Shown here piece after piece: positions 33,291 to 56,744 of a stretch of DNA of 64,000 nucleotides (its first letter is position 1; each line of letters begins with the position of its first letter). The translations under genes and the position numbers were made by a program. Source of the stretch: Torpedo marmorata (Eukaryota). Location: assembly GCA_977017645.1 (NCBI GenBank), contig OZ360247.1, positions 16,430,001-16,494,000 on the forward strand. The letters run 5' to 3'. The notes beneath the pieces are model-generated. The model was given only the letters and a program-made list of their open reading frames with translations, was not told the DNA's origin and ran no database searches.

Positions 33291-33538
33291 ATTTGAGAAA
33301 CATCTAATTTTCCTCTCTGAAAGGCAGCTTTGGTGGCAGCTCCACTCTCTTCACTTCTTTAATCAATTTAACTTACTTTTTTTGAGTAAGCTTTTGCTAA
33401 ATATGCACATTTAAACACTGCAACTGCAATGGATTATTGATATTATTGGATACAAACGTACATATAGAAGTAGGTAACGAGTTGCTGACTGCAACTCCAA
33501 TATTACGGACGAGGTTTATTCTATCCAACAGCTCACAA

Positions 33539-33541
33539 GCG

Positions 33542-33579
<38 letters not shown>
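33539..33579. repeat. (GC)n(AC)n compound microsatellite
   Basis: GCGCGCGCGCGC directly followed by ~14 AC units. Confidence 0.9.
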
Positions 33580-33580
<1 letters not shown>

Positions 33581-35146
33581 CCTTAAATGAATATAAATAA
33601 TAACTCGTTTGTATCAAAATATATACAACTTAAATAAATTCCGTGCACAAATGGTGATCAAAAGAATTGTCTGCGTTTCTCTGCTTTTCTTTACATTTTG
33701 GAAAGGTTTGAGAGTAATTCCACGTTCATTCTCTGTTTCATTGCTGTGTATAAATCTGGTGAATGGGCATTAACGACCAACGTAAGACAAGGACACGGAT
33801 TCGATTCTAATATGTTTGAGCCAATAAGAACAAATCATGTTCTTGTTAAAAGAATTCCAAGATAAACAAAAGTCCTGTGAAAAACATGGGCCTCGATAGT
33901 GGCAAATATTCGATGTTATTGCTTAAAATTCGACATAGAATTGTTCTGAACTCCGAGCCGTGTGCCAGTTGTTAAGCATTTGGCAGGCGGTTGGACCTAC
34001 AGAACTACATAATATCATCACACGTCGTGAACTGTTGACGGTGACCTTACAGGTGCGAAACACGAGCCGTAATGAATATAAACCAAGACAGCTGGTATCC
34101 AGGAAATGAATAATTGTTAATACCGGTAAAAGGGCTGATGTGGACACGGTGACAGTGGGCAAACTTGACGCTTTCGCTTCAGACTTCCGCCTTGAGTGCC
34201 TTAGAAAAGATGTCGAAAACTTTCAACGGGTCATGAATAAAATATAATTTACTTAATAAAATAAACATTTTTGGCGTAGCCCCTGAACACGGGGCCAGAA
34301 GCCAGGAGGATGTTTACATCATGTTTCAAACAATAATCCAGCAAATATAAAACGCAATATACTTGAAACCCTCTAAACCCTTAGATTTAAAAATATAAGC
34401 GTGCCCTATGCTTTTGCCTTAGTGTTGAAATCTATTCCCTGCGCATTGGTTCTTTTATCGGAGTCAAAATACAATTCAACTCTTCTTGGACGAGTTTGGT
34501 TGAAAGGTTATCTCTGTGTAAATGCTTGGACTCAGTAAAACCTGTTTGAAGAAAAACAGATGTGATTCGCAGCATATTTGAAGGCTATGCACCCTGGGCG
34601 TGTGCACACGCCATTAAAACCACATCAGGCACTTGCTAAAGGGGAACATTGAAAACCAATAGCGATAATGTCAACTCACTTTATTGGGTTTTATCAGTTG
34701 GGGAGAGATCTAGAACCAACATTAAAAAATATTTTTTTCTCTCGACAACCAATCATTCTTGATAAGAAGCCAAAAAGTATATTTGCTTGATGTAATCTAA
34801 TACTTGATTATTTGGGTTTCTGAGAAATTAATGTCGCGACCTTTGTTAAGTAATGGGACAATATTTATTACAATACAATGTAATCTGTTAGAATATATAG
34901 CCTGTTTAGTAATGTTCTGCAAGTGATTTCCTGATAATACTGTAGTAATGATGTCACCAAGGAGGTTAATTAACAGAGCATATGGTGGGGTTTAAAACGA
35001 CACTGAACCTTTTGGTTGGAGGTATTGAAGTGAAATCACTGGCATCAATAAAAACCAACAAAGTTCAGCAGGACCGTTCTTTTGAAGCATTGTTCAAATT
35101 TTAAAAAATCATCTCAACCATTTGTGTTGGTGTGTACGAAAATATT

Positions 35147-35386
35147 ATTACAGCACCAATAGCCTGAATACGACTGGGATTGTCTGATCTCGGAAAGCTA
35201 AGCAGGTACAGGACTGTCAGTACTTGGAGGGGAGACCGCCTTGGAACACCAGATGCTGTAAGTTTCTGTGAGGGGCGCTGGACAAAGTAGCGACTCTCTG
35301 TCTGCCTTACGGTAGACAAAAATTAAAGAATTTCATGTATGTTACATTCTAAATGTAGTATTACATGACAATAATGGAACCTTTAC
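35147..35386 (+). mobile_element. 5S rRNA-derived SINE (SINE3-type), apparently full length
   Basis: 35147-35265 aligns to 5S rRNA (AGCCTGAATACG...GTCTGATCTCGGAAAGCTAAGCAGG...GTACTTGGAGGGGAGACCGCCTTGGAACACC...TGCTGTAAGTTT), then a ~120-bp non-5S tail that recurs at 54785. Confidence 0.85.
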
Positions 35387-45056: not shown

Positions 45057-47720
45057 TTTGTAACTATAATCCCCTTGTGTTAATGCCATAATTTCACTTT
45101 TATCAGAATTAATCTTATAACCATATATTTCCCCATATTCTCTCAATGAAACAGTCAATTGTATTAAAGAAGTAATAGGTTTTGTCATATAAATCAATAC
45201 ATCATCTGCAAATAAACTAATTTTATGCTCTTCTCTTCCAACTTTAATACCTGCAATCTTAATATCTTGTCTAATTAATTCTGCCAAACGTTCTATTGCT
45301 AAAATAAACAATGCTGACGACAAAGGACATCCTTGTCTAGTTGACGTAGTCAAAAAAATTTTTGAAGAAATTTGTCCATTTGTCACCACTTTAGCAGATG
45401 GTTCTTTATATATCAGAATCAGAATCAGAATCAGAATTTATTGTCATGAACAAGTCATGAAATTCGGTGTTTTGCGGCAGCATCATAGTGCAATTAACAT
45501 TCATATTAACTATCTAACGACATTACTATAAAAAATTATAAACAATAGTGCATGAAAAGTAAGGCAGTGTCTTTGGTTCATTGATTATTCAGGAATCTGA
45601 TGGCAGCGGGGAAGAAGTTGTCCTTGTGCCGTTGAGTGCTCGTCTTTAGGCTCCTGTACCTTTTTCCCGATGGTAGCAGAGTGAAGAGGGCATGGCCTGG
45701 GTGGTGGGGGTCCTTGAGGATAATCCAATTAATAAATGTAGTTCCAAAACCAAATTTCCCCAATACCTTAAATAAATAATTCCACTCTAATCTATCAAAA
45801 GCCTTTTCAGCATCTAATGTTAATACTAATGCTAAATCATCTTTCTTTTTATCCACATTAATTAAACAAATTAATCTAGCTATGTTATCCTTTGAATATC
45901 TATTCTTAATAAAACCGGCTTGATCTACATGGATTAAATCTGGTAAATAATTAGCCACTCTATTTGCTAAAATTTTTGCCATTATCTTATAATCCACATT
46001 TAACAATGAAATAGGTCTATATGATTCTGTTTTCAACACATCTCTATCTTTTTTAGGTATAACTGTAATTATTGCATTTGAAAATGTTTCCGGTAACGAA
46101 TGAGTTTCCGTTATTTGTTTCAACACAACCATATATGGAGGTATCAATAAATATTTAAACTCCTTATAAAATTCTGATGGGAAGCCATCTTCCCCTGGAG
46201 ATTTATCACTCGTTAAAGAACTAAGAACATCATTAACTTCCTTCATTGAGAAAGACGAGTCTAAAAATTCTTTACTTTGAATATTTAATCCAGGTAACTT
46301 AATTTTAGATAGAAATTCATTAATTTTAGAATCATCTTCATCAATCTGAGATTTATATAAATTCAAATAATAATCCTTAAAAGAATCATTTATTTCTCGA
46401 GGTTTATATGTTATTTTCTTAGTATTCTTTTTTATAGCATTTATAGTTCTAGAGGTATGATCTTTCTTTAGTTGCCACGCCAACATTTTATGTGCTCTTT
46501 CTCCCAATTCATAATATCTTTGCTTAGTTCTTTCAATTAATTTTTCCATTTTATATGTTTGTAACAACTTATAATGCAATTTTTTCCCAACTAAGTTTTT
46601 CCTCTTTTCTTCTTATCTCTTTTTTTGCAAGTCCTTCTCCAAAGATTCAATCTCCCTCTCCAAATTATCTACCTCCTGAACATAGTCCTTCTTAATTTTT
46701 GCTGAATAACTTATTATTTGGCCTCTTAAATAAGCCTTTAAAGCTTCCCAAATAATAAATTTATTATCAATCGAATTAGAATTTATTTGTAAAAATTCTT
46801 GAATTTCTCTTCTTATATAATCACAAAAATCCATTCTTTTTAATAAAGAAGAATTAAATCTGCACCTATATATAGTTTTTTTCTTTTTCTGGAATTATAC
46901 AAGACATTAATAGAGGCGAATGATCAGAAATTATTCTTGCTTTATAAGATGCTTGTGTTACCCTATTTTGGACTTGTGAGGACAATAAAAACAAATCTAT
47001 CCTTGAATATGAATCATGTCTGAAAGAATAAAAAGAATAATCATTTTCTCTAGGGTTCAATTTTCTCCAAATATCTATTAAATTTAAATCTTTCATCAAA
47101 CTAAGAACTCTTTCAGCAATTTTAGATTTAACAACTGATCTTGATGTTTTATCCATTATCGGATCTAAACAACAATTAAAATCCCCACCAATTAAAATGT
47201 TATCATTAGCTTCTGACAAATGCATAAAAGAATCTTGAATAAATTGTTCATCTTCCACATTTGGTACATATATATTCATAAGTGTCCACAATTCTGAATA
47301 TATCTGACAATGTATTAAAACATATCTACCTACCACATCTATAACCACAGATTGTATTTTAAAAGTCAACTTTTTATTAACTAATATAGCCACTCCTCTT
47401 GCTTTAGAATTAAATGAAGAAGCAACCACTTGGTCAACCCATTCTCTCTTCAACTTCTGATGTTCTAAATCTGTCAAATGCGTCTCTTGTAAAAAAGCTA
47501 TATCTACATTTAACTTTTTAATATACGCTAAAGTTCTCTTTCTTTTAATCAGGTTATTTAGCAGATTTATATTAATACTTACTACATTTATTGTTTTACT
47601 ATCCATCATTACTAAATCTTAATAAGTCTCTCTCCATCAGATCCACCAGCACTCTCCTCCACATTCGTAATCTATTTGACATCTCCTTAAAAAGAAAAAG
47701 AAAGAAAAAGAAAGTAGAAA
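45057..47720 (-). mobile_element. L1-clade LINE (AT-rich lineage A), ORF2 endonuclease and RT, disrupted
   Basis: APE motifs FLQETH, GGDFN, YSRID, SDH; RT motifs SPGEDG, YRPISLLNVDYKI, LDAEKAFD, RQGCPLS, FADD. Confidence 0.93.
45413..45720 (-). mobile_element. Rex1/Babar LINE 3' end inserted into L1 ORF2
   Basis: ILKDPHHPGHALFTLLPSGKRYRSLKT...RFLN and a (CAGAAT)n tail; near identical to 55743-56050. Confidence 0.9.
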
Positions 47721-47722
47721 AG

Positions 47723-49232
47723 ATCTCCAGGGGAAGATGGTTTTCCATCAGAATTTTATAAGGAGTTTAAAGATTTATTGATACCTCCATATATGGATGT
47801 GTTGAAACAAATTACGGAAACTCATTCGTTACCAGATACATTTTCAAATGCAATAATTACAGTTATACCTAAAAAAGATAGAGATGTGTTGAAAACAGAA
47901 TCATATAGACCTATTTCATTGTTAAATGTGGATTATAAGATAATGGCAAAAATTTTATCAAATAGAGTGGCTAATTATCTACCAGATTTAATCCATGTAG
48001 ATCAAGCTGGTTTTATTAAAAATAGATATTCAAAGGATAATATAGCTAGATTAATTAGTTTAATTAATGTGCATAAAAAGAAGGAAGATTTACCATTAGT
48101 ATTAACGTTAGATGCTGAAAAGGCTTTTGATAGATTAGAGTGGAATTTTTTATTTAAGGTATTGGAGAAATTTGGTTTTGGAATTACATTTATTAACTGG
48201 ATTAAAACTATATATAAAGAACCATCTGCTAAAGTGGTTACAAATGGACAAATTTCTTCAAGATTCCCTCTGACTAGGTCAACTAGACAAGGATGTCCTT
48301 TGTCACCAGCATTGTTTACTTTAGCGATAGAACCTTTGGCAGAATTAATTAGACAAGATGTTAAGATTATAGGTATTAAAGTTGGAAGGGAAGAGCATAA
48401 AATTAATTTATTTGCAGATGATGTATTGATATATATGACAAAACCTATTACTTCTTTAATACAATTGACTGCTTTATTGAGAGAATACGGGGAAATATCT
48501 GGGTATAAGATTAATTCTGATAAAAGTGAAATTATGGCATTAATGCAAGGGGATTATAGTAAATGTAAAGAAATTACACAATTTAAATGATCAAAAGAAG
48601 GAATTAAATATTTGGGTATAAAGATTGATACAAAATTAGTTAATTTGTATAAATTAAATTATTTACCATTGTTTATGAAAATTAAGAAAGGTTTAGAAAG
48701 TTGGAAGGATTTACCTATAACTTTAATGGGAAGGGTAAATTGTATTAAAATGAATGTTTTTCCAAGAATTCAATATCTCTTTCAATAAATTCCTTATGAA
48801 ATTCCTCAAAATTTTTAAAAAGATTTAAACTTAATTATTAGGAAGTTTTTGTGTAAAGGAAAGTTGACTAGGGTAGGTATAGAGAAATTAACTTGGAATT
48901 ATGAAATGGGTGGTTTACAACTTCCTAATTTTCAAAATTATTATAAAGCAGCTCAATTAAAATTTGTTAATGAACTTTTTGATTTAACTAAGTCTTCCGC
49001 CTGTATTTGAATAGAATTAAATAATTTAGGAGAAGATTCCAAAGAAGAAGTTATTTATAAATGGAATTCTAAATTAATATCAACAAGAAGGAAGAATTCT
49101 CCTATCTTTTAACATTTGCTAGAAATATGGAATAAAGTGGATAAGGAGGAAAAGGGTTGATTTCTCCAAAAATGCCTCTATATGAAAATGAACTTATTCC
49201 ATTTACTGTTAACAATCAATTATTTAAAATTT
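47723..49232 (+). mobile_element. L1 lineage A ORF2 RT fragment in inverted orientation
   Basis: The 270-aa ORF at 47778 closely matches the minus-strand RT at 45057-46202. Confidence 0.92.
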
Positions 49233-53007: not shown

Positions 53008-54784
53008 AAAGGTGCCTTTGGTGATATTTCCACCCTTCCTCCAGCACATTCATTGATTTCCTGCCAAATCTTAATCATGTGTTTTAGAATGGGGTTGTCC
53101 ATTCTTCCAGGTATTAATTTGGTGTTCCATTTGTAAATAAAATCTTTCGTTATTTTCACTCCCATGGTGTGTAGTCCAATTTGGACCCACGAGGGGGGAT
53201 CGTCCCCCTTGAAAAAGGATGAAAGAAACCTCGATTGGGCTGCTAAATAATATTTCTTAAAATCCGGTAATCGCAAACCCCCCAAATTGTAATCCCATGT
53301 CAGCTTCTCCATGGAAGCTCTGGAGACCTTACCACTCCAAATAAATTGCCTTACATATCCATTAAGTGTTTTTAAAAAGACACGTGGCAATGGAATTGGT
53401 AAGGACTGAAAGAGGTATTGCAGTCTCGGCATCACCTTCATTTTAATGTAGTTCACCCCGCCCACTAGAGTAATGGGCAGGTTCCTCCACCTAAGTAAAC
53501 CGTCTTCAATCTTTCGAAGCATAGGGAGGTAGTTAAGTCTATACAAATTCTGAAAATTATTATCAATCATTATTCCTAAATATTTAATACCGTTTAGTTG
53601 CCATTTAAAACGACTCCTTTGTTGATTTTCCCCGTAATCAAATTTTGCCAACGGCATGATCTCACTTTTTTCTAAATTGATTTTGTAACCCGAAATCTTG
53701 CCGTAATCTTCCAGTGTGGTCTGCAACCTGGCCAAGTACTCGGCAGGGTGTGTCAAATACAACAGCACATCATCTGCAAATAAATTAATTTTATGATCCA
53801 CCTGGTCCACCCTGAATCCTTTTATGTCTGGATCCCACCTAATAGATTCCGCCAGTGGCTCAATTGCCAAAATAAAAAGTCCTGGAGACAGTGGACAACC
53901 CTGTCTGCTAGACATACTTAAGGGGAATGTTGACGATATCTGGCCATTCGTAATAATATTAGCCCGAGGTTTGTCCAGTACCTTGAATAAAAACGGCCAT
54001 TCCAGTCTATCAAAATATTTTTCCGCATCCGAAGACTTGGCTATACTCGGGTCTGCCTTTGATTGTGCCAAATGTGTAATACTCAATAGTCTGCCCAAAT
54101 TATTGGCCGAGTGTCTCTTCTTAATAAAGCCGACTTGGTCTGGATTTATCAATTTTGGTAAATATCGACCCAATCTATTAGCCAATGCCTTGGCTATTAT
54201 TTTGTAGTCTGCATTTAATAATGAGATGGGCCTGTATGAAGAAGTTTTTAATGGGTCTCTATTTTTCTTTGGTATAACTGTAATAATAGCTGCTGAAAAG
54301 GATTCCGGGAGAGTCCGTGTTTCCGCTGCCTGGTTAACTACATTCATAATAAGAGGCATCAACAGATCGTTAAACTCTCTGTAGAACTCAGGAGGGAAAC
54401 CATCTTCTCCCGGCGATTTATTCGCCTGTAGAGAACCCAAGACGTTTTCAATCTCCTCTCCGGAGAAAGGGGCATCTAATTCCATCCGATCCTCCTGATC
54501 CAATTTTGGCAATTCAATCATGGACAAGAACTCATCTATTTTAGTTGAGTCACTTGATGACTCTGACTCATACAATTTTATATAAAACTGTTTAAAAGTG
54601 TCATTAATCTTTTTTGGATTGTACAATATATTATCCGGTCCCGACTGAACTGCATTAATTATCCTCGAGGTCTCCTCTGCCCTCAATTGCCAAGACAAAA
54701 CCTTATGTGCTCTTTCCCCTAATTCGTAGTATATCTGCTTGGATCTTAAAATATCCTTCTCCATTTTGTATGTTTGTAAAGTAT

Positions 54785-54895
54785 GGACATAATAGCGACC
54801 CTCTGTCTGCCTTACGGTAGACAAAAATTAAAGAATTTCATGTATGTTACATTCTAAATGTAGCATTACATGACAATAATGGAATCTTTACCTTT
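54785..54895 (+). mobile_element. 5'-truncated copy of the 5S-derived SINE inserted in L1 ORF2
   Basis: Near identical to 35279-35386; splits the L1 peptide KKLKY / TLQTYK. Confidence 0.88.
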
Positions 54896-55742: not shown

Positions 55743-56744
55743 TGAATCAGAATCAGAATTTATTGTCATGAACAAGTCATGAAATTCGGTGTTTTGCGGC
55801 AGCATCATAGTGCAATTAACATTCATATTATAACCATCTTACGACATTACAATAAAAAATTATAAATAATAGCGCACGAAAAGTAAGGCAGTGTCTTTGG
55901 TTCATTGATTATTCAGGAATCTGATGGCAACGGGGAAGAAGCTGTCCTTGTGCCGTTGAATGCTCGTCTTTAGGCTCCTGTACCTTTTTCCCAATGGTAG
56001 CAGAGTGAAGGGGGCATGGCCTGGGTGGTGGGGGTCTTTGAGGATAGAGGCTGCTTTTTTAAGACACCGCCTCATGTAGATGTCCTCGATGGAGTGAAGT
56101 TTGGTGCCTGTGATGTCACAGGCTGAGTTAACAACCCTCTGTCCTGAGAGTTGGCGTCTCCATACCAGGCAGTGATGCAACCAGCCAGAATGCTCTCCAC
56201 GGTACACCTGTAGAAGTTTACGAGAGTCTTTGGTGACATACCGAATCTCCTCAGACACCTCACAAAGTATAGCTGCTGACGAGCCTTCTTTGTGATTGCA
56301 TCAACGTGGAGGCTCCAGGACAGATGCTCGGAGATGTTGACACCCAGGAATTTGAAGTTCTTGACCCTCTCCACTACTGAGCCCTCGATGAGGACTGGGT
56401 CATGTTCCCCTGACTTCCTCCTGAAGTCCACAATCATCTCCTTGGTTTTGCTGACGTTGAGCTCAAGGTTGTTGTCGTTACACCATTCAATGAGCTGATC
56501 TATCTCCCTCCTGTACGCTTCCTCATTGCCGTTTGTAATTCTGCCGACAACTGTGGTATCATCGGCAAACTTGTAGATGGCATTGGAATTGTGCCTGGCC
56601 ACACAGTCATGGGTGTATAACGAGTAGAGCAGTGGACTTAGCATGCATCCTTGGGGTGCGCCTGTGTTGATAATCAGTGAGGAGGAGACGTTGTTTCCAA
56701 TTGGTACTGACTGTGGTCTTCTGACCACAGTCAGTACGAATTGG
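55743..56744 (-). mobile_element. Rex1/Babar LINE, 5'-truncated, RT C-terminal half
   Basis: GAPQGCMLSPLLYSLYTHDC...KFADDTTVVG...NVSKTKEMIVDFRR...FKFLG; (CAGAAT)n tail; inserted in the L1 endonuclease. Confidence 0.93.

What the first reader, a model, noticed from the sequence alone, without database searches (positions are those of the whole stretch)
35147..35386. 5S rRNA-derived SINE whose tail resembles the Rex1/Babar LINE 3' end
Seen: a diverged ~120-nt 5S head with internal promoter boxes (AGCTAAGCAGG; TACTTGGAGGGGAGACC) and no T4 terminator, followed by a tail ending GAATTTCATG...CATGACAATAA. The Rex1/Babar copies in this window end GAATTTCATGACTTGTTCATGACAATAAA(TTCTGA)n, the same two blocks. 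The tail also has stem-loops (TGTCTGCC/GGTAGACA; TACATT/AATGTA). Known: SINEs borrow the 3' end of their partner LINE, and zebrafish SINE3 has a CR1/L2-type tail. Inference: this is a 5S-SINE/Rex-Babar partnership in a cartilaginous fish, possibly an undescribed family.
Basis: partly seen in the sequence, partly recalled or inferred. Interest (0 to 1): 0.7.

Follow-up and report, generated by a model that had tools for sequence, protein, structure and literature searches.

The report
Young 5S-headed SINE, Rex1-type tail
This is one copy of a young, abundant jumping element (over 15,000 copies) that joins a piece of the 5S ribosomal RNA gene to the tail of an older non-coding repeat, and it is likely copied by Rex1 retrotransposon enzymes, a pairing I did not find described for this kind of element.

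Summary
The element is real: a 237-nt SINE (35150-35386) made of 5S nt 5-119 plus a 122-nt tail. Head and tail are linked in 40 of 40 best genome hits and 28 of 30 tail-anchored loci. A tail 19-mer occurs 15,734 times, copies are about 98% alike, and another organism has the site empty. The tail does not align significantly to the window's Rex1 tails (10-nt block; 46-49 of 500 shuffles reach it). It aligns end to end (about 80%) to the 3' end of an older ~850-nt non-coding retroposon ('X'), the likely donor. Rex1 is still the likely mobiliser: the terminal motif follows 25 of 50 Rex1 ORF ends but 1 of 49 CR1 and 2 of 30 L1 ends, and the terminal hairpin is shared. A weaker signal ties the SINE's middle to the Rex1 5' end. 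A tRNA-Thr-headed sister shares the tail (1,283 matches). The scan noted this family before, in this genome and in others. Repbase, Dfam and SINEBase could not be checked; salmon OS-SINE1 (5S head, RSg-1 tail) may be a precedent.

The parts
35150..35386 (+). Full-length SINE copy, 237 nt, 97% identical to the family majority
35150..35264 (+). 5S-derived head = 5S nt 5-119. Family majority matches the host's own 5S gene at 94 of 115 positions (32/45 in nt 5-49, 43/48 in nt 50-97)
35196..35210 (+). Box A of the type 1 Pol III promoter (14/15 to the host 5S gene in this copy; box limits recalled from the Xenopus 5S promoter)
35213..35217 (+). Intermediate element; this copy lacks one base that the family majority has
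35225..35242 (+). Box C (16/18 to the host 5S gene)
35265..35386 (+). Tail homologous over its whole length to the 3' end of non-coding repeat X; also shared with a tRNA-Thr-headed sister family
   Evidence: (nhmmer E 7.6e-20)
35274..35304 (+). Segment weakly similar to the extreme 5' end of Rex1 family A (possible bipartite origin); overlaps predicted hairpin 1 (35270-35298)
35299..35318 (+). Predicted hairpin 2; the matching stem is paired in 45-47 of 48-49 X/SINE tails per position
35333..35374 (+). Predicted terminal hairpin (35333-35368) followed by unpaired CAATAA: the Rex1-type end
35380..35386 (+). (CCTTTA)n terminal repeat, about one unit here, 1-3 in other copies
54784..54891 (+). 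Second, 5'-truncated SINE copy (95% to the first) inserted in an L1/Tx1-type LINE with about 1 nt of target overlap
55744..56700 (-). 5'-truncated Rex1-type LINE, family A (RVT_1 + PF09004); candidate mobiliser family
45411..45722 (-). Second truncated Rex1 family A copy

Best explanation
This is a young 5S-headed SINE family of over 15,000 copies whose tail matches the 3' end of an older non-coding retroposon (X), and it is likely transcribed by RNA polymerase III and likely copied by a Rex1-type LINE. Shown: family, boundaries, linkage, tail homology to X, an empty orthologous site, lack of target duplications. Inferred: origin by a template switch from an X transcript onto 5S RNA; transcription from the retained A/IE/C boxes through the tail to a T run in the flank; recognition of the terminal hairpin + CAAUAA + short repeat by the Rex1 protein, most likely of family A, which is abundant and similarly young; insertion by target-primed reverse transcription. 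A tRNA-Thr-headed sister uses the same tail.
For: Linkage: 40 of 40 scored hits span head and tail at 95-97% (includes the query itself; selected for similarity). Of 30 loci anchored only on a tail 19-mer, 28 have 5S-head sequence upstream, 2 are truncated, 0 have a LINE or X upstream; mean identity 97.8%. 8 of 8 copies in 800 kb of position-chosen DNA are head+tail. Insertion as a unit: one contig of organism C joins the two flanks without the element (skips 244 nt). Donor: about 80% end-to-end alignment to X; X shows a 5'-truncation staircase in 30 loci and no coding frame. Rex link: motif RTGAYAA(A)TAA within 350 nt after 25 of 50 Rex ORF ends, 1 of 49 CR1, 2 of 30 L1/Tx1, background 86 of 5000. 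The TGA is predicted paired in a stem (mean probability 0.83 in 42 Rex tails, 0.82 in 50 X tails, controls 0.53 and 0.57). No long target duplication in 41 SINE or 35 Rex A copies. No L2 or RTE reverse transcriptase was evident among 105 RT loci in 864 kb. Family A has frames up to 1034 aa and 1,725 matches to its 5'-end pattern; its young copies are 93-98% identical to one full-length copy.
Against: No autonomous LINE with the X/SINE tail was found: best SINE-tail score to any true Rex tail about 23; family H has a different tail; no Rex ORF lay directly upstream of 78 X-type tails. The SINE's terminal repeat (CCTTTA) differs from family A's (TTCTGA). The SINE's own terminal stem is not significant alone (41% of shuffles reach 0.8; z -1.3), and the Rex A tail folds no better than shuffles (z -0.37). 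CR1 also fits a lack of target duplications (recalled). Only about 2 Mb of 6,221 Mb was read, so a rare partner may be missed. Transcription and mobilisation were not tested.
Confidence: 0.75

Rival explanations
1. The tail was borrowed directly from the 3' end of the Rex1 family seen in the window, with X not involved.
For: The SINE shares the exact 10-mer GAATTTCATG with Rex A, whereas the closest X subfamily differs at that block; both are young.
Against: Local score 20, reached by 46-49 of 500 shuffles, against up to 112 for X; X aligns from the first base after the 5S head to the terminal repeat.
Confidence: 0.05
2. X and the SINE depend on another, unsampled or extinct LINE (a rare Rex1 lineage with the X tail, or a different CR1-group clade).
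For: No sampled LINE carries the X tail. X is old (78-90% to its consensus), so its first partner may be gone. Zenon and L2 elements are reported in sharks and rays (PMC13343379, passages).
Against: The SINE is about 98% homogeneous, so an active partner existed recently; among sampled LINE types only Rex1 has the terminal motif.
Confidence: 0.18
3. A chance 5S pseudogene next to another repeat, or a variant 5S rDNA unit spread by DNA-level duplication.
For: The head alone scores at Rfam's 5S cut-off.
Against: Unique flanks and sharp shared ends in 30 of 30 aligned loci; fixed differences from the tandem 5S genes on C25, which end in a T run; 5' truncations and a variable terminal repeat; an empty site in another organism.
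Confidence: 0.01

Closest known systems
OS-SINE1 (salmon and trout DeuSINE; PMC3747384 Table 1, PMC3272025 and PMC5135761, passages read)
   Same: 5S rRNA head in a fish; tail shared with tRNA-headed SINEs (SlmI, HpaI) and traced to a LINE (RSg-1). I recall RSg-1 as Rex1-like, which would make it a precedent; the passages I could read do not give its clade.
   Different: OS-SINE1 is listed as a DeuSINE. Here the X-derived tail begins right after the head, leaving no room for a core domain, and the tail matches a non-coding repeat rather than an autonomous LINE.
Zebrafish SINE3 / AmnSINE1 (PMC3747384 table; PMC7245038 passages)
   Same: 5S head in a vertebrate SINE moved by a CR1-group LINE.
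   Different: DeuSINEs with CR1-4_DR-type tails; PMC7245038 says vertebrate SINE3 families are moved by the CR1 clade. This tail carries the motif found after Rex1 but not CR1 ORFs in this genome.
CoeSINE5, Ped-1, HaSE3 (PMC5786205 passages; PMC3747384 table; PMC3272025 passages)
   Same: 5S head joined to LINE-derived ends, each with a tRNA-headed sister sharing the 3' part (CoeSINE4, Ped-2, HaSE1).
   Different: Those use RTE-clade LINE ends. PMC5786205 lists only RTE, Ingi, Vingi and R2 as sources of bipartite non-autonomous LINEs; PMC6740152 adds CR1/Zenon. Rex1 is named in neither (0 hits for the term).
SINE2-5_NV with Rex1-24_NV (sea anemone; PMC3747384 table)
   Same: A SINE paired with a Rex1 LINE tail, so Rex1 partnership itself is known.
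   Different: tRNA head, cnidarian host.

Membership tests
SINE (SINEBase definition, PMC3531059 passages) | Short (<1 kb), interspersed, at least 100 copies | tested here: met
   237 nt; 15,734 exact matches to a tail 19-mer on both strands; unique flanks
SINE (SINEBase definition) | At least 60% identity to 5S rRNA over at least 60 nt | tested here: met
   94 of 115 positions match the host 5S gene
SINE (SINEBase definition) | Not an RNA pseudogene: extra body and shared diagnostic changes | tested here: met
   122-nt tail and shared substitutions in 30 of 30 aligned copies
SINE3 (5S-headed) | Retained internal A/IE/C promoter, no internal T4 | tested here: met
   43/48 in 5S nt 50-97 versus 32/45 upstream; longest T run 3; box limits recalled
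SINE3 (5S-headed) | Transcription by RNA polymerase III | not testable with these tools
   Only assembled contigs were available; they cannot show transcript starts or ends
DeuSINE (SINE3-1, AmnSINE1, OS-SINE1) | Central Deu domain | tested here: not met
   The X profile aligns from 35266, two bases after the head, to 35384, leaving no room for a core; no Deu consensus was available for direct comparison
Rex1-partnered SINE | 3' end homologous (tens of nt) to a specific autonomous Rex1 family | tested here: not met
   Best score to a true Rex tail about 23; 18-20 for window copies, not above shuffles
Rex1-partnered SINE | Shares the Rex1-specific terminal motif and stem | tested here: met
   25/50 Rex versus 1/49 CR1 and 2/30 L1; stem pairing 0.83 and 0.82 versus controls 0.53 and 0.57
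Rex1-partnered SINE | Mobilised in trans by Rex1 protein | not testable with these tools
   Needs a retrotransposition assay
Rex1/Babar LINE (family A of the window) | Single ORF with AP endonuclease and RT, no ORF1, conserved 3' UTR plus oligonucleotide repeat (PMC6274825 section 4; PMC13343379 passages) | tested here: met
   L144: 3.25 kb, one 1034-aa frame from the 5' end; RVT_1 and PF09004 above cut-off, endonuclease families weak and below cut-off. Link of PF09004 to Rex1 is recalled
Rex1/Babar LINE (family A of the window) | RT phylogeny within the Rex1 clade | not tested
   No reference Rex1 sequences were available; only separation from the genome's CR1 and L1 types by similarity
Bipartite (5'+3' LINE ends) SINE, as CoeSINE5 or Ped-1 | Middle segment homologous to the partner LINE's 5' end | tested here: inconclusive
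   SINE tail versus first 60 nt of Rex A: 1, 2 and 64 of 1000 shuffles reach the score under three scorings; 0, 0 and 3 of 100 other Rex A windows. X shares a 13-mer. Noticed first, tested afterwards

The most novel reading that the evidence does not exclude
X is a very high-copy non-autonomous retroposon built from Rex1 ends, and its last 120 nt form a bipartite module (Rex1 5' end + Rex1-type 3' end) that was captured twice, by a 5S and by a tRNA-Thr promoter. This would add Rex1 to the few LINE clades that yield bipartite non-autonomous elements and SINE middles.
Probability: 0.35. Interest if true: 0.6.

Novelty: new variant of a known kind. Interest (0 to 1): 0.42.

Why it matters
5S-headed SINEs are uncommon (2.3% of the first SINEBase release, PMC10946416 passage), and the vertebrate ones are described as CR1- or RTE-dependent. 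A young Rex1-dependent one, with its likely tail donor, a tRNA-headed sister and long-frame Rex1 copies all in one genome, gives a testable case of what Rex1 recognises: apparently a stem plus CAAUAA rather than long sequence identity. Presence or absence of copies (one empty site seen) could serve as phylogenetic markers among related species. It does not change the general SINE model.

Tried and rejected
(1) The idea that the segment after the head is a remnant tRNA-SINE head: dropped when X aligned to it from 35266. (2) Search for an autonomous LINE bearing the X tail: none among 76 Rex 3'-end hits, family H tails or 78 X-type tails. (3) X 5' part as a Rex1 5' UTR: the X profile gave no significant hit on 30 family A 5' regions; on 30 family H regions the two strong hits were neighbouring X copies; only a short 5' motif is shared. 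(4) Rfam scan of four loci, three or more holding X: no family matched X. (5) First pattern for a tRNA-headed sister: 0 matches, because the pattern did not fit; a second pattern found it. (6) Pattern for X copies with the SINE junction: 3 matches only. (7) PF14529 genome search gave places that I did not follow. (8) Expression: no RNA holder listed; contigs only. (9) The X control kept one tail through a trimming error and was redone; the alignment fold there recovered hairpin 2 but not the terminal stem, and showed mostly one-sided changes. (10) Copy number: exact count 15,734 (includes the sister family); 5 of 8 sampled copies carry the 19-mer, giving about 25,000; sample density (8 per 800 kb) gives about 60,000; the estimates disagree and rest on 8 copies. 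(11) Literature: 9 searches answered; none listed a paper on a 5S SINE with a Rex1 tail in sharks or rays, and none gave the clade of RSg-1. Two papers sought by id were not held; the SINEBase supplementary table, which may bear on novelty, could not be read; PMC3472496 had no hits.

Full report
Observation. The stretch holds a 5S rRNA-like head (Rfam 35146-35264, 38.2 bits, E 2.7e-4) followed by a tail. The tail folds into three predicted hairpins (z -4.47, 0 of 200 shuffles). A second, 5'-truncated copy lies at 54784-54891 (95%).

It is a family. A genome search returned 40 scored hits of 2,532 candidates, all spanning head and tail. Alignment of 30 of them fixes the element at 237 nt, starting at the equivalent of 5S nt 5 and ending in (CCTTTA)n, with unrelated flanks. 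Because those hits were selected for similarity, I used two further samples. In 80 position-chosen 10-kb stretches (8 of them next to the window), 8 of 8 copies were head+tail at 93-98%. In the first 30 loci of an exact tail 19-mer search, 28 had 5S-head sequence upstream, 2 were truncated, none had a LINE or X upstream; mean identity 97.8%. The 19-mer occurs 15,734 times; true copy number is probably 25,000-60,000. Contigs of six coded organisms (A, B, C, D, E, G) cover both head and tail, a seventh (F) only in part; B, C and G show shared variant letters. One contig of organism C joins the two flanks of this very locus without the element, with no duplication and a loss of one or two target bases (single contig).

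Head. The host's tandem 5S genes on C25 end in a T run. The SINE majority matches them at 94 of 115 positions: 32/45 in nt 5-49 and 43/48 in nt 50-97, the internal promoter (limits recalled). No T4 lies inside; the first T4 in the flank lay 1-351 nt downstream in 42 copies. This fits Pol III transcription but does not show it.

Tail. The window's Rex copies are Rex1-type by Pfam content and by the structure of a full-length relative (3.25 kb, one 1034-aa frame). Yet the SINE tail aligns to them only through a 9-10 nt block, which 46-139 of 500 shuffles reach. It aligns instead over its whole length, at about 80%, to the 3' end of another repeat, X (score up to 112). X is about 850 nt, 58% G+C, without a coding frame, with a fixed 3' end, a (CCTTGAA)n-type repeat and stepwise 5' truncation in 30 loci. 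It is abundant (27 3' ends in 800 kb) and older than the SINE (78-90% to consensus). The X profile aligns to the window from 35266 (E 7.6e-20), so the SINE is head plus X tail with no core domain. No autonomous LINE with this tail was found.

Why Rex1 is still the likely mobiliser. Several Rex1 subfamilies with different 3' UTRs end in the same motif plus a microsatellite. The motif follows 25 of 50 Rex ORF ends, 1 of 49 CR1, 2 of 30 L1/Tx1 and 86 of 5000 random stretches. In Rex and X tails its TGA is predicted to close a stem (0.83 and 0.82 versus 0.53 and 0.57 in shuffles) and the following CAAUAA stays open. For the SINE alone this stem is not significant. Neither SINE nor Rex A copies show long target duplications; reconstructed empty sites mostly show a few bases lost or shared. 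Among 105 RT loci in 864 kb, 36 were Rex-like, 31 CR1, 25 L1 and 13 decayed; none looked like L2 or RTE. Family A is young and has 1,725 matches to its 5'-end pattern; family H is also young but has a different tail. Stem-loop recognition is established for other stringent LINEs (PMC5135761, passages); for Rex1 it is inferred here.

Bipartite signal. The first 60 nt of Rex A share a 13-mer with X near its 3' end (0-1 of 2000 shuffles reach that length). The SINE segment 35274-35304 aligns colinearly to it; 1, 2 and 64 of 1000 shuffles reach the score under three scorings. One internally deleted Rex A copy (5' end + 3' end) was seen among 30 (L170). The signal was noticed first and tested afterwards, and other shared blocks in X are out of order, so I rate it 0.35. 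I recorded it before reading earlier scan notes that report the same for other genomes.

Sister family. Earlier notes and loose ends pointed to a tRNA head on the same tail. A junction pattern gave 1,283 matches; 8 of 12 loci were called tRNA-Thr(TGT), 1 tRNA-Lys, 3 uncalled, all 12 with the tail at 95-99%.

Comparison and novelty. Passages read: PMC3747384 (pair table), PMC5786205, PMC7245038, PMC5499810, PMC3272025, PMC5135761, PMC10946416, PMC13343379, PMC6740152, PMC3531059, and section 4 of PMC6274825. Rex1 partnership is known for a tRNA SINE (SINE2-5_NV). 5S heads with LINE tails and tRNA-headed sisters are known with RTE (CoeSINE5, Ped-1, HaSE3) and with RSg-1 (OS-SINE1), whose clade I could not confirm. 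PMC13343379 reports rays among the species richest in Rex1. Nine searches listed no paper on this family; the repeat databases could not be searched. The host group was not tested here. Verdict: a real SINE3, a new variant of a known kind, already noted by this scan; interest 0.42.

Noticed in passing
L007:535-1319, L005:1900-2640, L064, L076 and others: Repeat X: ~850-nt, GC-rich, non-coding retroposon with a Rex1-type end, 27 3' ends per 800 kb (roughly 200,000 copies). Origin of its 5' 700 nt and its promoter are unexplained.
   Followed up: partly
L304-L315 (G000:C1): tRNA-Thr(TGT)-headed sister family on the same tail, 1,283 junction matches.
   Followed up: yes
window 35150-35157 and 35251-35259: In the family majority the first 8 nt are the exact reverse complement of a stretch at the end of the head, and the first four 5S bases are missing in nearly all full copies.
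   Followed up: no
L117:9353 region, L277, L284: SINE copies with short duplications of their own 5' end, or with an internal deletion.
   Followed up: no
L078: A SINE copy split by a later insertion with about 15 nt of the SINE repeated on both sides.
   Followed up: no
L170: A single internally deleted Rex1 A copy of about 290 nt, made of the 5' and 3' ends only.
   Followed up: partly
L194-L243: A second young Rex1 family (H) with many frames of about 1000 aa and near-identical copies; about 50% protein identity to family A.
   Followed up: partly
window 45063-48560: L1/Tx1-type LINE with inverted arms (482 and 351 nt, 93-95%) and a Rex1 insertion.
   Followed up: no
window from 24792: Long 9-bp tandem array (over 270 units), with N runs nearby.
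   Followed up: no
window 33536-33686: Rfam SCARNA7 hit below cut-off, driven by a GT repeat; likely spurious.
   Followed up: no
G000:C25:86.20-86.56 Mb: Tandem array of genuine 5S rRNA genes with a unit of about 3.1-3.8 kb.
   Followed up: partly
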